Assembly (NCBI GenBank): GCA_041661185.1
Contig: JBAZUV010000004.1
Span: forward strand, 85,002-149,001
Length of the DNA stretch: 64,000 nucleotides
DNA from: Elusimicrobiota bacterium
GTDB lineage: Bacteria; Elusimicrobiota; Elusimicrobia; UBA1565
Direction: 5' to 3'
Within the stretch, counting starts at the first letter, position 1, and the number at the start of each line of letters is the position of its first letter. Both the position numbers and the translations under genes were made by a program. Below, piece by piece: positions 50,830 through 53,943 of the stretch. Below the pieces are notes generated by a model. The model was not told where the DNA came from and did not search any database. It worked only from the letters and a program-made list of their open reading frames with translations.

Positions 50830-53800
50830 ATGTCCATGAATAAATCCCTTCTCCGCCTTTCAATCCTCCTCTTGCCTGGAGTGCTCTGCGCCCAGAACAC
50901 CCTCCTGCAAGTCCAGCCCGCGATCCTGCCCAACGCCGGCCTCGGCACGGCGGGACAAGCCGCGATCGAAGGTCTCAAGTCCCCGGTTTCCGCGGACAAG
51001 ATCACGCCCCTCTCCCTGCCCTCTTCCGCACTGACCGAACCGGCGCAGCAAGTCCTGCCGAACCTCCCGGGAGGAACGCTTAAGGAGCAGGTCCTTGCGG
51101 CGCCGCAGTCCGCTGATATCGCGCCGGCCTCCGCGGTCAAAGCCAAGGGCCGGACGAGGAAGACCGCCGTCCCCCTCTCCAAGAAGACCTCCGCGCGCCG
51201 CCTCAAGGACGTGGATTTCGCCGCTTTCTCGCCGGAGAAACTCAAGGAGACTCCGGCCGGACAAGCCCAAGAGCTGGGCTCCGCGCTCATGGACAAGGTC
51301 CTGAACACGCAGAGCGCTCCCTCCGTCGCGGACGCGGTCGACGTCCAGGCCGTCAAGAAGACTGCCAAGCCCAAGGCGCCCAAGACGCATCTGGCCCCGA
51401 AGGTCTCGATCCTGCACAAGCACACGGCCCATGCGCCGGGAGAGCACTCCAACAACCGCCTGGTCACCTTCGGCTTCGACCCGGAAGAGTTCGCCCTGCG
51501 CTACCTCCTGGGCAAGGACGATCCGGCGCCCAAGGGCTATGAGCTCCTCATCGGTCTCTCCGTGCACGAGACCATGGAAGCGGCCTACACCTGGGTCAAG
51601 AACGGCATCCCCGGCAAGGACATCACGCTTGAAGATCTCCTGCGGGAATACGACCTCGCCTGGGAACGCAATCTGAAGGAATCGAACTACCAGCCCCGCG
51701 ACGGCTGGAAGCCGGAAGAATACAAGCGCCGCGGAGAATCCTTCATCCGCAGGCGCTTCGAACTGCTCGCTCCCTTCGACAAGCAGGGAGAGATCCTCGC
51801 GCTCGAAGAGACGATCCATTGGTCCATGAAGGACCCGGCCACGGGCAAGGACTATCCCTTCATCGGCATCATCGACCGCCTCATGCTCGAAGGCGACACG
51901 ATCGTCATCCACGACTGGAAGACCCACTTCAACCCCCCGGACATCCATCATTTAAAGGAGGGAGACTTCCAGCTCGGCCTCTACGCGCTCGGGCTCATGC
52001 GTTCGCGGCCGGACCTGGTCAAAGGCCGCAAGATCAAGCTCGTCTGGGACTTCAAGGAATTCTCGCAGGAGATCCTCGTCGACGACGCCTATCTTGCCCG
52101 CGTGGAAGCGAAGGTCTTCGACGTCCTGCGCCGCATCGAGAGCTTCTCGGAGCGCGTGAACGCCGAGAAAGAGGAATGGCTCAAGCGCTCCTCTCCCGCG
52201 AAGGATCCCGAGGGAATGGCCGACGCGCGCAAGACCGCGGACTTCCTGGGCGACTTGGACGAGAAGATCGATGCGCTTTCCGAAAAGCTCCACGCGGCCA
52301 AGAAGGAATACGAGGAATTGGAAACCGGCATGATCCGCTTCGCTCTCGACAACGAGCTCTCCGAGATCCCGGGCGAAAAGCGAAGCCTGCTCATTAAGGA
52401 GCAGGTCTCTCGCGTGCCCACTCTCACGGACGACCCGGAAGCTCACGCTGCCCTGGTGGCCGCGCTCAAGGCCGCGGGACTATGGGAGCTTTATTCCACG
52501 CTGGCTCCGGCTCCCGTGCGAGCCATGGCTGAACTGCGCGGCGGCGAAGACCATGCGGTCTTCAATATTATCCAGCCGGCGCTCCAAACCGGCTTCTCCA
52601 ACGAAATCCAGACCTCTCCCAAAGAGGATGCCCCGATCGACCCCGCGCGCGGAGGAGGAGTGGCGCGCCGCTCTCCTGCCCGCAAGGAAGCCGATGAGAA
52701 CACCCTGCCCGGAATGCTCTCTCCCACCCAACTCTCGATCTTCATGGAGAGCCCCGATGCGTGGGTCAAGCAGTATCTCCTGCACATGAAGAGCAAGAGC
52801 CCCATGACCCTGGACGTGTATGCGGGCTCGGCCATCCATGAGACCCTGGAACAGCTCTTCATCTGGATCAAGGGCGGCCGCTTGGTCTCGAATATCAAGG
52901 TCGAAGACCTGGTGCAGTTCTTCGAGGAACGCTGGCAAGACACCCTCAAGAACACCCCTTACACCCTTGAGAAAGGCGTCTCGGTGGAAGACTACCATCA
53001 GCGCGCCGTGGATTACCTCCACTCCATGTGGAAGCGCTACAACCCCTTCGATCAGGGACGCGTCATCTACCTGGAACGCCGCATGCACTACGACCTCACC
53101 GACCCGGAAACAAAGCGCGTCTACCGCTTCCAGGGCATCCCGGACCGCGTGATGATCGAAGGGGACGTCGTGGTCATCCATGACTGGAAGTCCCATTTCA
53201 TCCCCCCCTCGGATGAAGAGATGCGCGCGCACGACTACCAGCTCGGCCTCTACGTCCTGGCTCTGCGCCAGCTCTTCCCGGACCTCATGAAGGGCCGCAA
53301 GGCGCGGCTGGTCTGGGACTTCAAGGACAAGACCACGGTCATCGACGTGGACGACGCCTATCTGGCGGACCTGCAGACGAGGCTCTTCAAGAGCCTGCGC
53401 GAACTCGACGCAGTCCGCACGGACTTCGACAAGGACCGCGCCCCCTGGGAGGAGCGTCTTAAGCCCGTGGAACTCCCATTGGACATGGACCAGGCCGGAG
53501 AGAACGTCGGGCGCATGGAAACGCTCGATGAGAATATCTCGACCCTGGAAAAGATGCTCAAAGGCCTCAAGGAAACGCGCGCGAACGCCGAATCCGCTCT
53601 CTCGGATTTCGCGCGGAATAACGGCCTTACGCGCATCCAGGGGGAACGCACCGAGGCCCGGCTCATGAAGCGCGGCTCCTTCTCGGTCCCGACGAAAAAA
53701 CCGGCCAAAAAAACGGACCCGGAGCTCGCGGACCCGGAACAGGAGGGCATCCCCACTCCCTACGAGCAGATCGTGGACGTGCTCAAGGCCGCGGGCGTAT

Positions 53801-53943
53801 GGGAGAAATATTCCCAGCTCGACTACGCGGCGATCAAGCGCGCGCTCGACGAATCAAAGGAAGACTTCGACCCGGAACTCATCGAGGCCGCAGGTCCCCT
53901 GCTCAAGGAAAAAGTGAAAGTCTCGGCAAAACTCTCGAAATAA
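50830..53943 (+). CDS. Secreted 1037-aa protein with two tandem RecB/Cas4-like PD-(D/E)xK nuclease domains, basic Lys/Ala/Pro-rich N-terminal region and coiled-coil linkers
   Basis: Sec signal MSMNKSLLRLSILLLPGVLCAQ. Domain 1 has HETMEAAY, GIIDRLMLEGDTIVIHDWKTHF, DFQLGLYAL. Domain 2 has HETLEQLF, GIPDRVMIEGDVVVIHDWKSHF, DYQLGLYVL. An internal duplication is evident and there are no Cys residues. A TATAAT sits about 25 nt upstream. Confidence 0.75.
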   Translation: MSMNKSLLRLSILLLPGVLCAQNTLLQVQPAILPNAGLGTAGQAAIEGLKSPVSADKITPLSLPSSALTEPAQQVLPNLPGGTLKEQVLAAPQSADIAPASAVKAKGRTRKTAVPLSKKTSARRLKDVDFAAFSPEKLKETPAGQAQELGSALMDKVLNTQSAPSVADAVDVQAVKKTAKPKAPKTHLAPKVSILHKHTAHAPGEHSNNRLVTFGFDPEEFALRYLLGKDDPAPKGYELLIGLSVHETMEAAYTWVKNGIPGKDITLEDLLREYDLAWERNLKESNYQPRDGWKPEEYKRRGESFIRRRFELLAPFDKQGEILALEETIHWSMKDPATGKDYPFIGIIDRLMLEGDTIVIHDWKTHFNPPDIHHLKEGDFQLGLYALGLMRSRPDLVKGRKIKLVWDFKEFSQEILVDDAYLARVEAKVFDVLRRIESFSERVNAEKEEWLKRSSPAKDPEGMADARKTADFLGDLDEKIDALSEKLHAAKKEYEELETGMIRFALDNELSEIPGEKRSLLIKEQVSRVPTLTDDPEAHAALVAALKAAGLWELYSTLAPAPVRAMAELRGGEDHAVFNIIQPALQTGFSNEIQTSPKEDAPIDPARGGGVARRSPARKEADENTLPGMLSPTQLSIFMESPDAWVKQYLLHMKSKSPMTLDVYAGSAIHETLEQLFIWIKGGRLVSNIKVEDLVQFFEERWQDTLKNTPYTLEKGVSVEDYHQRAVDYLHSMWKRYNPFDQGRVIYLERRMHYDLTDPETKRVYRFQGIPDRVMIEGDVVVIHDWKSHFIPPSDEEMRAHDYQLGLYVLALRQLFPDLMKGRKARLVWDFKDKTTVIDVDDAYLADLQTRLFKSLRELDAVRTDFDKDRAPWEERLKPVELPLDMDQAGENVGRMETLDENISTLEKMLKGLKETRANAESALSDFARNNGLTRIQGERTEARLMKRGSFSVPTKKPAKKTDPELADPEQEGIPTPYEQIVDVLKAAGVWEKYSQLDYAAIKRALDESKEDFDPELIEAAGPLLKEKVKVSAKLSK

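What the first reader, a model, noticed from the sequence alone, without database searches (positions are those of the whole stretch)
50830..53943. Exported 1037-aa protein with two intact RecB/Cas4-like PD-(D/E)xK nuclease domains and a basic N-terminal tail
A clear Sec signal peptide is followed by a Lys/Ala/Pro-rich, histone-like basic region, then two internally duplicated nuclease domains. Each domain retains the catalytic triad motifs: HET...E, the GxxDRh Asp, the (V/I)IHDWK (D/E)xK and QLGLY. The domains are separated by coiled-coil segments and have no Fe-S cysteines, so they are compatible with the periplasm or extracellular space. RecB-family nucleases are normally cytoplasmic. A secreted tandem version next to an IS relic is unusual. 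It could be an extracellular or periplasmic DNase acting as a barrier to incoming DNA, for nutrient DNA scavenging or for biofilm eDNA remodelling, or a contact-dependent effector.
Basis: partly seen in the sequence, partly recalled or inferred. Interest (0 to 1): 0.7.

Follow-up and report, generated by a model that had tools for sequence, protein, structure and literature searches.

The report
Exported tandem RecB-like nuclease without iron-sulfur
An uncultured groundwater bacterium (Elusimicrobiota) encodes a DNA-cutting enzyme of a type that normally works inside the cell, but this version has an export signal, has lost its iron-sulfur cofactor site and is duplicated in tandem, so it most likely degrades DNA outside the cytoplasm.

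Summary
ORF 50830..53943 (+) encodes a 1037-aa protein. It has a Sec-type leader and a ~180-aa disordered Ala/Pro-rich region. Two ~400-aa repeat units follow (35% identical, E=5e-77). Each unit is a RecB/Cas4-like PD-(D/E)XK nuclease core plus a long helix and a small C-terminal module, and both active sites are intact.

New here:
- The unit is a pre-existing standalone cytoplasmic and phage protein family (>2000 clusters). Those proteins have no leader and all carry the four-Cys Cas4/AddB-type Fe-S module.
- The leader-bearing clade is monophyletic. It comprises about 15 two-unit Elusimicrobia clusters and a few single-unit forms. It has replaced Cys1 and deleted the CxxCx5C loop.
- One ancient tandem duplication followed, and both copies kept their catalytic residues.

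The gene is a vertically inherited chromosomal gene with no conserved neighbour. The proposed downstream immunity gene, the "histone-like" tail and the IS relic are not family features.

Most likely function: a Sec-exported, cofactor-free nuclease that processes DNA ends in the periplasm or outside the cell, probably for DNA scavenging. Export and activity are inferred, not shown.

Verdict: new variant of a known kind, moderate interest.

The parts
50830..50892 (+). Sec-type signal peptide (aa 1-21): n-region MSMNKSLLR, h-region LSILLLPGVLCA, predicted SPase I site LCA|QN
   Evidence: Sequence inspection and rule-based scan. The same layout, with a small-x-A/S|Q site at aa 20-31, occurs in most full-length relatives. 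GAGG lies 8-12 nt upstream and an in-frame stop lies 8 codons upstream.
50893..51435 (+). Disordered Ala/Leu/Lys/Pro/Ser-rich N-terminal region of the mature protein (aa 22-202)
   Evidence: pLDDT below 35 except for the motif below. GC3 of 0.83 shows it is translated in this frame. It is poorly conserved in A1.
51187..51303 (+). Short conserved helical motif inside the N-region (aa ~120-158, ...DFAAFSPEKL...AQELGSALMDKVLN); function unknown
   Evidence: Consensus LxPKxDFSxFSPExL..PAAxA..AGxxLMDxVLG in A1. Helices at aa 120-158 with pLDDT about 64. A related motif occurs in the single-unit forms P0018, P0019 and P0286.
51436..52164 (+). Unit 1 nuclease core (aa 203-445), RecB/Cas4-like PD-(D/E)XK: H246, E250, E326, D349, D362-x-K364, Q381..Y385
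   Evidence: Pfam PDDEXK_1. Conserved residues. pLDDT 85-95. PADLOC Aga_Cas4-like_Nuc weak hit at aa 342-456.
52165..52623 (+). Unit 1 long helix (aa ~463-507) plus small beta/helical C-terminal module (VPT.. / LKAAGLWELYS)
   Evidence: Secondary structure and pLDDT. It is part of the internal repeat and is shared with the leaderless ~400-aa family. Weak DUF7307 match at aa 469-542.
52624..52707 (+). Disordered inter-unit linker (aa ~599-626)
   Evidence: pLDDT below 50 at aa 600-626.
52708..53433 (+). Unit 2 nuclease core (aa 627-868): H670, E674, E749, D772, D785-x-K787, Q804..Y808
53434..53943 (+). Unit 2 long helix (aa ~886-930) plus C-terminal module (VPTK / LKAAGVWEKYS), and the stop codon
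   Evidence: Invariant P954, T955, L985, K986, G989, W991 and S995.
50499..50666 (-). IS91-family transposase Zn-binding fragment (relic). It is a local insertion, not part of the system
   Evidence: Pfam Zn_Tnp_IS91, E=1e-9, on a spurious long ORF. It is absent from the syntenic locus L001.

Best explanation
The gene encodes a Sec-exported nuclease. After the leader is cleaved, at about LCA|Q, the mature protein has three parts: a flexible Ala/Pro-rich N-terminal tether and two covalently linked nuclease units. The units belong to the RecB/AddAB/AdnAB/Cas4/RecE/Dna2 clade of PD-(D/E)XK enzymes, and both have complete metal-dependent active sites.

The units descend from a standalone ~400-aa cytoplasmic and phage 'RecB-family exonuclease' that carries a four-Cys Fe-S module. 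The exported lineage removed that module, so the protein can cross the membrane unfolded through Sec and fold without a cofactor that cannot be inserted outside the cytoplasm. The unit was then duplicated in tandem.

I infer that it binds DNA ends in the periplasm or outside the cell and degrades the DNA with Mg2+ or Mn2+. The most probable physiological role is breakdown of extracellular DNA for nucleotide, phosphate and carbon scavenging.

Shown: the architecture, the conservation, the loss of the Fe-S module, the evolutionary order of events and the absence of partner genes.
Inferred: export, catalytic activity, end-dependence and the physiological role.
For: Nuclease identity:
- PDDEXK_1 E=5e-37 with two stretches.
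- PHROG 'exonuclease' families 69 and 1218, E about 3e-28.

Active sites:
- All catalytic positions are invariant or at least 90% conserved in both units across 14 orthologues that share only 39-52% identity.
- They are also invariant against the leaderless relatives.

Export:
- The tripartite leader starts at the true N-terminus.
- Its h-region of 8-14 residues in most members is too short for a TM helix.
- There is no other 19-residue hydrophobic window in the protein.
- The leader is positionally conserved although its sequence diverges.
- The mature proteins have 0-1 Cys.

Cofactor loss:
- Every full-length leaderless relative checked has Cys1 in FExCP and a C-x2-C-x5-C motif at about aa 240. 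There are about 140 of these representatives.
- All leader-bearing forms lack both.
- The ten-residue Cys loop is cleanly deleted.

Evolution:
- The Fe-S-less clade is monophyletic, the single-unit leader-bearing forms are basal, and U1 and U2 form parallel clades.

Not a toxin or defence module:
- No conserved neighbour.
- Housekeeping synteny with the P0002 and P0004 loci.

Compatible with scavenging:
- The same window encodes a UshA-type 5'-nucleotidase with its own leader and a DeoC-domain protein.
- One homologue is divergently adjacent to a xanthine/uracil permease and is followed by a phosphonate/phosphate-binding protein.
- Secreted nucleases mark DNA-degrading taxa in sediments (PMC8289736).
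Against: - No signal-peptide predictor was available and there is no experimental evidence of export or activity.
- The leader gain and Fe-S loss coincide in one monophyletic clade. This is effectively a single evolutionary event, not a replicated correlation.
- P0021, a divergent Fe-S-less Elusimicrobiota member, has its units preceded by TM helices followed by K/R-rich loops. The positive-inside rule would place those units in the cytoplasm. Fe-S loss could therefore have preceded export.
- P0037 (Omnitrophota) has an N-terminal hydrophobic segment yet keeps the Cys motifs.
- Four relatives have an RR pair in the n-region, so Tat export cannot be formally excluded for them.
- The links to nucleotide salvage genes are loose: 30 kb away in the window, and single instances elsewhere.
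- The role of the conserved N-region motif and of the C-terminal module is unknown.
- The structure models rest on only 14 sequences.
Confidence: 0.6

Rival explanations
1. Periplasmic DNA-processing enzyme for DNA uptake, or a barrier against incoming DNA. The exported tandem exonuclease would resect or degrade one or both strands of DNA that reaches the periplasm, whether through natural transformation or injection by mobile elements. Nutrition would not be its purpose.
For: The export and nuclease evidence is the same as for the main explanation. The closest structural relatives are end-processing and strand-resecting enzymes: AdnAB, AddAB, Dna2, RecE, Cas4 and ACE1. The window carries a large type IV prepilin-like protein at 37502-40141.
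Against: No competence genes (comEA, comEC, pilQ) or defence genes are linked to the nuclease in any of the loci examined. The pilin-like gene is 11 kb away and its homology is weak. There is no precedent in the literature searched.
Confidence: 0.15
2. The protein is not exported. It would be a cytoplasmic or inner-membrane-tethered, cytoplasm-facing recombination or repair nuclease, and its hydrophobic N-terminus would be an anchor or have no function.
For: All characterised members of the RecB/Cas4 clade are cytoplasmic (established knowledge; PMC5704561). The divergent relative P0021 seems to have cytoplasm-facing, membrane-tethered Fe-S-less units by the positive-inside rule.
Against: The basic residues lie before the h-region, which gives N-in/C-out. 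The h-region is only 8-14 residues in most members. A conserved small-x-A|Q cleavage-type site follows it in most members. The complete loss of an otherwise universal Fe-S module is hard to explain for a cytoplasmic enzyme. There is no helicase or recombinase partner.
Confidence: 0.1
3. Interbacterial toxin or effector. The nuclease would be delivered into competitor or prey cells, and the disordered N-region would serve as a translocation segment.
For: PD-(D/E)XK toxin domains exist, for example PoNe T6SS effectors (PMC6688995) and others listed. The long disordered N-terminal region is reminiscent of colicin translocation domains (recalled, not tested). Basal members are co-operonic with giant membrane proteins that carry an M48 peptidase domain.
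Against: There is no conserved adjacent immunity gene; the downstream gene differs in every locus. Pfam found no PAAR, Rhs, MIX, CdiA, T7SS or other trafficking domain. The gene is vertically inherited in a housekeeping neighbourhood with parallel U1 and U2 trees, unlike polymorphic toxins. The nuclease sits at the core of the protein, not on a variable C-terminal tip.
Confidence: 0.07
4. Non-degradative extracytoplasmic nucleic-acid-binding protein, for example one that organises biofilm eDNA, with the nuclease fold used mainly for binding.
For: There are two DNA-binding units on a flexible tether. The N-region of this particular protein is basic.
Against: Every catalytic residue is conserved in both units across the whole clade, which argues for catalysis. 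The basic charge of the N-region is not conserved.
Confidence: 0.05

Closest known systems
Standalone ~400-aa 'putative RecB family exonuclease' / PD-(D/E)XK nuclease family proteins (PF12705). They are widespread in Planctomycetota, Chlamydiae, Pseudomonadota, Aminicenantes and Methanoperedens, with ~400-aa phage RecB-like exonucleases such as those of Tsukamurella phage TIN4 and Arthrobacter phage KellEzio
   Same: The whole unit is shared: nuclease core, long helix and C-terminal module. The profile matches positions 4-400. The catalytic residues are the same. The phage proteins align structurally over the whole unit.
   Different: These proteins have no leader. All carry the four-Cys Fe-S module (Cys1 in FExCP, then C-x2-C-x5-C). 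They have a single unit. They are uncharacterised themselves, and no conserved partner was seen in three loci.
Cas4 and Cas4-like nucleases (SSO0001, type I-C Cas4, ACE1)
   Different: Cas4 family members all bind an Fe-S cluster through four Cys (PMC5704561). Here the module is deleted. TIGR00372 scores 13.8 bits against a cut-off of 65. No cas or Argonaute genes were found among the neighbours scanned. Cas4 proteins are cytoplasmic.
Nuclease domains of AdnAB, AddAB, RecBCD and Dna2
   Different: There is no helicase domain in the protein or next to the gene. The two nucleases sit in one polypeptide through tandem duplication. The protein has a leader and no Fe-S module, whereas AddB and Dna2 have one.
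Classical secreted or periplasmic bacterial DNases: endonuclease I (EndA/Dns/Vvn), staphylococcal nuclease, beta-beta-alpha-Me NucA/NucM, EEP-family Xds/ExeM
   Same: The predicted location and probable role are the same: a Sec leader and degradation of DNA outside the cytoplasm (PMC6746945, PMC6384898 and PMC8289736, listed).
   Different: The folds and catalytic mechanisms are unrelated, and no Pfam match to any of these families was found. Those enzymes are mostly sugar-nonspecific endonucleases, whereas the relatives of this protein depend on DNA ends.
PD-(D/E)XK toxin domains (PoNe T6SS effectors, CdiA-CT, Tox-REase families)
   Same: The same superfamily, also acting outside the producer's cytoplasm (PMC6688995, PMC3482391).
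   Different: Those are short C-terminal toxin tips on trafficking proteins with adjacent immunity genes. They are not of the RecB/QxxxY type. None of these features is present here.

Membership tests
PD-(D/E)XK superfamily, RecB-like clade (Pfam PF12705 PDDEXK_1) | HMM score above the curated cut-off | tested here: met
   128.5 bits against a cut-off of 22, with two stretches.
PD-(D/E)XK superfamily, RecB-like clade (Pfam PF12705 PDDEXK_1) | Catalytic D ... (D/E)xK plus the clade-specific QxxxY motif | tested here: met
   Unit 1: D349, D362-W-K364, Q381..Y385. Unit 2: D772, D785-W-K787, Q804..Y808. All are invariant or at least 90% conserved.
PD-(D/E)XK superfamily, RecB-like clade (Pfam PF12705 PDDEXK_1) | RecB-type alpha/beta fold | tested here: met
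   In the AF2 models the cores have pLDDT 85-95. Top hits are AdnA, Dna2, ACE1, RecE, MGME1 and Cas4. These are predicted structures, not solved ones.
PD-(D/E)XK superfamily, RecB-like clade (Pfam PF12705 PDDEXK_1) | Metal-dependent nuclease activity | not testable with these tools
   Requires biochemistry.
Cas4 family (PF01930 / TIGR00372) | Four conserved cysteines binding an Fe-S cluster | tested here: not met
   The mature protein has no Cys. Cys1 is replaced and the CxxCx5C loop is deleted. The requirement is stated in PMC5704561.
Cas4 family (PF01930 / TIGR00372) | Family HMM above the cut-off | tested here: not met
   TIGR00372 scores 13.8 bits against 65. PF01930 was not reported for the window protein.
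Cas4 family (PF01930 / TIGR00372) | Association with CRISPR-cas, Argonaute or mobile-element contexts | tested here: not met
   The neighbours are housekeeping genes in the window and in six homologous loci. No CRISPR-array search was run.
AddAB / AdnAB / RecBCD helicase-nucleases | SF1 helicase domain fused or co-encoded | tested here: not met
   There is no helicase domain in the protein or in adjacent genes. TIGR02784 scores 38 bits against 860.
Sec / SPase I secretory proteins | Tripartite signal peptide: basic n-region, 7-15 residue h-region, small residues at -3 and -1 | tested here: met
   MSMNKSLLR / LSILLLPGVLCA / LCA|QN. The layout is conserved in the full-length relatives, and most also have the small-x-A/S|Q site. 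This was a rule-based test only.
Sec / SPase I secretory proteins | Prediction by a trained predictor (SignalP, DeepTMHMM) and experimental export | not testable with these tools
   No predictor was available. PhoA or Bla fusions are needed.
Lipoproteins (SPase II) | Lipobox L-[AS]-[GA]-C | tested here: not met
   The window has G-V-L-C, which is not a lipobox. Most relatives have no Cys at all in the leader. P0003 and P0004 (SASC, TAAC) are borderline.
Polymorphic toxin / effector-immunity systems | Conserved adjacent immunity gene | tested here: not met
   The downstream genes are unrelated across loci. The window ORF compared with the L001 ORF gives E=0.69.
Polymorphic toxin / effector-immunity systems | Recognisable trafficking domain (PAAR, Rhs, MIX, CdiA, LXG and the like) | tested here: not met
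   None was found in Pfam at E up to 1.
Known anti-phage defence systems (PADLOC) | Match to a defence-system protein model with system context | tested here: not met
   There were only weak Cas4 and Aga_Cas4-like domain hits (E of 7e-6 or weaker) and no system partners. The upstream DUF4143 ATPase matches candidate PDC-S01, but it is a local insertion.

The most novel reading that the evidence does not exclude
The exported Fe-S-free RecB-like nuclease may be part of a previously unrecognised envelope-associated feeding or DNA-handling apparatus. Basal members of the clade are translationally coupled to giant multi-TM proteins with an M48 peptidase domain. An Omnitrophota relative fuses two such nuclease units with MBL, HAD and HD hydrolases behind an N-terminal hydrophobic segment. 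In this reading the tandem protein is a covalent pseudo-dimer that threads and resects DNA ends outside the cytoplasm, for example DNA from lysed or attacked neighbouring cells, or DNA entering the periplasm. That would be the first extracytoplasmic enzyme of the RecB/Cas4 type.
Probability: 0.15. Interest if true: 0.75.

Novelty: new variant of a known kind. Interest (0 to 1): 0.55.

Why it matters
RecB/Cas4/AddB-type nucleases are textbook cytoplasmic enzymes of repair, recombination and CRISPR adaptation. I found no description of an exported one, although the searches were limited to open-access text.

This family offers a clean natural experiment in how an Fe-S enzyme is re-engineered for the Sec pathway: remove the cluster module, add a leader and a tether, then duplicate the unit. 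It also gives a cofactor-free, Cys-free RecB-like nuclease scaffold that could be easy to produce recombinantly.

If it is active outside the cell, it adds a new enzyme class to the set of markers used to recognise extracellular-DNA degraders in subsurface communities.

The practical scope is limited, because the family is confined to a small uncultured Elusimicrobia clade plus a few metagenomic single-unit forms.

Tried and rejected
1. PDB sequence search with the full protein found no hits at E up to 10.
2. NCBIfam gave only sub-threshold AddA and Cas4 matches.
3. PADLOC found no defence system.
4. Downstream ORF 53988..54548 as an immunity gene: it has no family and is not conserved. Rejected.
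5. Conserved gene neighbourhood: six loci of the exported family and three of the leaderless family show no shared partner.
6. Giant M48 partner of basal members: tblastn found no homologue in the window or in 19 loci, so it is not a general partner.
7. The promoter and terminator scan around the gene found nothing above the shuffle expectation.
8. The afdb50 fold library was unavailable.
9. Model coordinates are not exposed, so I could not measure active-site geometry or inter-unit contacts.
10. Literature searches for exported RecB-like, Cas4-like or PDDEXK nucleases found none. Searches on Elusimicrobia and nucleases or competence gave nothing relevant.
11. Lipoprotein and Tat readings of the leader were considered and judged unlikely.

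
Full report
**1. The observation**

The ORF at 50830..53943 (+) is real and encodes 1037 aa. An identical protein, annotated from the second Met (1035 aa), is deposited as 'PD-(D/E)XK nuclease family protein' from an Elusimicrobiota MAG (P0001).

The start is well defined:
- An in-frame stop lies 8 codons upstream.
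- A GAGG lies 8-12 nt before the ATG.
- GC3 in the first 202 codons (0.83) equals that of the rest of the gene, so the N-terminal low-complexity region is translated in this frame.

Pfam PDDEXK_1 matches with E=5e-37 in two stretches, and there is a weaker Exo5 match. The two halves of the protein align over ~400 residues at 35% identity, E=5e-77. It comprises the nuclease core, a ~45-residue helix and a small beta/helical C-terminal module with the signature VPTK...LKAAGxWEKYS.

**2. Anatomy**

The AlphaFold2 model of the full protein (14-sequence alignment, pTM 0.66) gives this layout:

| Residues | Feature |
|---|---|
| 1-124 | disordered (includes the leader) |
| ~120-158 | short helical motif, pLDDT about 64 |
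| 159-200 | disordered |
| 203-598 | unit 1, folded, pLDDT mostly 85-95 |
| 600-626 | disordered linker |
| 627-1037 | unit 2, folded |

A model of unit 2 alone has mean pLDDT 82, with the nuclease core near 90.

Fold comparison:
- Foldseek against the PDB gives the AdnA nuclease domain, the Argonaute-associated Cas4-family enzyme ACE1, RecE, AddA/AddB, Cas4 SSO0001, the E. rectale exonuclease 3l0a and MGME1 (E from 4e-8 to 1e-3).

All of these are DNA-end-processing nucleases of the RecB clade.

The catalytic positions (His/Glu on the first helix, Glu, the GxxD Asp, D-x-K, QxxxY) are invariant or at least 90% conserved in both units across 14 family members that share only 39-52% identity. 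They are also invariant in an alignment with leaderless relatives. Both active sites therefore appear to be under purifying selection.

**3. The leader**

The N-terminus is MSMNKSLLR (two basic residues), then LSILLLPGVLCA (12 uncharged residues), then QN.
- Every full-length relative has the same layout: +1 to +3 charge before the hydrophobic stretch and an h-region of 8-14 residues in most. Most also have a small-x-A/S site followed by Gln at positions 20-31: LCA|QN, VSA|QQ, AFA|QQ, AYA|QQ, AFS|QT, LAA|QV, AGA|QT, AAA|QP. P0008 and P0019 have leaders but no such site.
- No 19-residue window in the window protein exceeds a Kyte-Doolittle mean of 1.6, and in relatives the only such windows lie in the leader.
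- The window sequence has no lipobox, and a twin-arginine pair is not conserved.

By the classical rules this is a cleavable Sec/SPase I signal peptide, which would place the rest of the protein outside the cytoplasm. I had no trained predictor, so this remains a rule-based call.

**4. The key comparative result**

A profile of the single unit was searched against 1.84 billion representative proteins. It found 1374 relatives at E up to 1e-3 and 131 at E up to 1e-30.
- After the two-unit Elusimicrobia proteins come a few single-unit proteins with a ~215-aa N-terminal extension (P0018, P0019, and later P0286).
- Then come more than a hundred proteins of ~400 aa that match the whole unit (profile positions 4-400) starting at about their third residue. 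These have no leader and no extension.
- A second search seeded with one of them (P0024) found more than 2000 clusters, named 'putative RecB family exonuclease' or 'PD-(D/E)XK nuclease family protein'. They come from Planctomycetota, Chlamydiae, Pseudomonadota and even Methanoperedens.
- Phage RecB-like exonucleases of ~400 aa align structurally over the whole unit.

Scanning all retrieved sequences gave a clean split:
- Every full-length leaderless relative has a Cys in FExCPxxY near residue 14 and a C-x2-C-x5-C motif near residue 240. This is the four-Cys Fe-S module typical of Cas4, AddB and Dna2.
- Every leader-bearing protein lacks both and has 0-3 Cys in total.

The alignment shows Cys1 replaced by Ser or Asp. 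The ten-residue Cys loop is deleted, leaving only the conserved Trp.

A neighbour-joining tree (crude, no bootstrap) shows three things:
- The Fe-S-less clade is monophyletic.
- The single-unit leader-bearing forms branch first.
- The U1 and U2 copies form two parallel clades with matching internal topology.

The history is therefore: a cytoplasmic Fe-S nuclease lost its Fe-S module and gained a leader and tether, and then underwent one ancient tandem duplication.

Fe-S clusters are assembled in the cytoplasm, and a Sec substrate crosses the membrane unfolded. Removal of the module is what one would expect of a lineage that moved outside. Activity without the cluster is plausible for two reasons:
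- RecB, RecE and lambda exonuclease lack it (established knowledge).
- One Cas4 remains an endonuclease without it, according to the highlights of PMC8610317 listed.

Caveats:
- This is one evolutionary transition, not a replicated correlation.
- The divergent member P0021 has Fe-S-less units behind TM helices whose following loops are K/R-rich. That would put those units in the cytoplasm.
- The Omnitrophota giant P0037 keeps the Cys motifs despite an N-terminal hydrophobic segment.

**5. Genomic context**

In the window the gene follows PssA/Psd (minus strand), an NlpC/P60 hydrolase, a DUF4143/AAA_14 ATPase and an IS91 fragment. Downstream lie a low-complexity ORF, an MBL-fold protein, an FKBP and others.
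- The P0002 locus is syntenic (delta', MetRS, PssA, Psd, GlnRS, NlpC/P60, nuclease..., MBL, FKBP) but lacks the ATPase and the IS fragment. These are therefore a local insertion.
- The P0004 locus keeps GlnRS-NlpC/P60-nuclease.
- More distant members sit in unrelated neighbourhoods.
- The gene immediately downstream is different in every case: a Cys-rich secreted protein, a membrane protein, a phosphonate-binding protein, a zinc-ribbon protein, or a convergent carbamoyltransferase. The window's ORF has no similarity to the syntenic one (E=0.69).

There is thus no cognate immunity gene, no helicase or recombinase partner, and no defence-island or mobile context. The gene behaves as a vertically inherited chromosomal gene of a clade of high-GC groundwater and sediment Elusimicrobia. 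It occurs in 8 GTDB species representatives and in no cultured lineage.

**6. What it most likely does**

I commit to this reading: a Sec-exported, cofactor-free, two-headed RecB-like nuclease that acts on DNA in the periplasm or outside the cell, most probably for scavenging extracellular DNA.

Steps that are shown:
- the fold family
- two conserved active sites
- a conserved leader
- loss of the Fe-S module
- the evolutionary order of events
- the lack of partner genes

Steps that are inferred:
- export
- catalysis
- end-dependence (by analogy with all structural relatives)
- the nutritional role

Three loose hints support scavenging:
- The window also encodes a UshA-type 5'-nucleotidase with its own leader (MNTLRRSRKLSALIGVLFFFAARCGA...), and a DeoC-domain protein.
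- In the P0010 locus the nuclease is flanked by a xanthine/uracil permease and a phosphonate/phosphate-binding protein.
- In marine sediments, secreted nucleases were found only in taxa shown to degrade DNA (PMC8289736).

The higher confidence of the C-terminal modules in the full-length model than in the single-unit model suggests that the two units pack together as a covalent pseudo-dimer. I could not inspect coordinates, so this is a weak inference.

**7. Rivals**

- A periplasmic role in DNA uptake or as a barrier to incoming DNA fits the enzymology equally well, but it has no supporting gene linkage.
- A cytoplasmic location conflicts with the leader topology and with the Fe-S loss.
- A toxin or effector role conflicts with the missing immunity gene, the missing trafficking domains and the vertical inheritance.
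- A purely structural DNA-binding role conflicts with the conserved catalytic residues.

**8. Comparison with the known, and novelty**

The protein is a member of the PD-(D/E)XK RecB-like clade (PF12705). It is not a member of the Cas4 family in the strict sense: the Fe-S cysteines were tested and are absent, and TIGR00372 scores far below its cut-off. It is also not a helicase-nuclease.

In function it would parallel the classical secreted DNases (endonuclease I, SNase, beta-beta-alpha-Me and EEP nucleases), but it is unrelated to them.

Literature searches found no exported RecB-like or Cas4-like nuclease. The Cas4 phylogenomics paper does not mention leader-bearing or Cys-free forms.

The proteins are already in public databases under a generic name. 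What is new is the recognition of an export-adapted, Fe-S-free, tandemly duplicated variant and its evolutionary origin. I rate it a new variant of a known kind, with interest 0.55.

**9. Unexplained**

- The function of the conserved helical motif in the N-terminal tether is unknown.
- The function of the C-terminal module shared with the cytoplasmic and phage family is unknown.
- Basal members are coupled to giant multi-TM proteins that carry an M48 peptidase domain. No homologue of that partner is near the window gene or the other loci.

Noticed in passing
window 20912-22921 (-): UshA-type 5'-nucleotidase (Metallophos + 5_nucleotid_C). The listed ORF is over-extended. The likely true start is the internal MNTLRRSRKLSALIGVLFFFAARCGAEN, which is a signal peptide, so the nucleotidase is probably exported too.
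   Followed up: partly
window 37502-40141 (+): 879-aa protein with a type IV prepilin-like N-terminus (GATLIELMITVAILSII), a CarboxypepD_reg domain and a sub-threshold lamin-tail domain. It lies in a stretch of lower GC (about 0.56-0.61 at 36-42 kb).
   Followed up: partly
window 48981-50150 (+) and ~50499-50666 (-): A DUF4143/AAA_14 ATPase matches PADLOC candidate system PDC-S01 (E=2e-52). An IS91 Zn-binding fragment lies next to it. Both are inserted between NlpC/P60 and the nuclease when compared with the syntenic locus L001.
   Followed up: partly
window 1934-3838 (-): 634-aa protein with Schlafen AlbA_2 and HATPase_c_4 domains. It resembles a putative DNA-binding or defence-type ATPase.
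   Followed up: no
window 34642-37272 (+); 18751-20184 (-); 8062-10215 (+): Nucleotide-metabolism genes are scattered in the window: a ribonucleotide reductase with a TSCPD domain, a DeoC/LacD aldolase-domain protein, and a uridine kinase/PRK-domain protein fused to a weak Alg6/Alg8-like region.
   Followed up: no
L020 1-6004 (soil metagenome contig with P0286) and the P0014 locus (no DNA held): Basal members of the exported nuclease clade overlap by 4 nt with giant multi-TM proteins that contain a Peptidase_M48 domain (at least 2147 aa in L020; 1386 aa plus 627 aa upstream and 1459 aa downstream of P0014). This may be an ancestral operon of unknown function.
   Followed up: partly
P0037 (Candidatus Omnitrophota, 2709 aa): Giant protein with an N-terminal hydrophobic segment, HAD, metallo-beta-lactamase and HD domains, and two units of the same nuclease family that still carry the CxxCx5C Fe-S motif.
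   Followed up: no
P0021 (Elusimicrobiota, 840 aa, partial): Fe-S-less nuclease units interleaved with groups of 2-3 TM helices. K/R-rich loops after the last helix suggest cytoplasm-facing, membrane-tethered units, which may be an intermediate form.
   Followed up: no
L004 11909-14496 (P0011 locus): Two Oxidored_nitro (nitrogenase-like) paralogues lie about 3 kb from the nuclease gene in a groundwater Elusimicrobia MAG.
   Followed up: no
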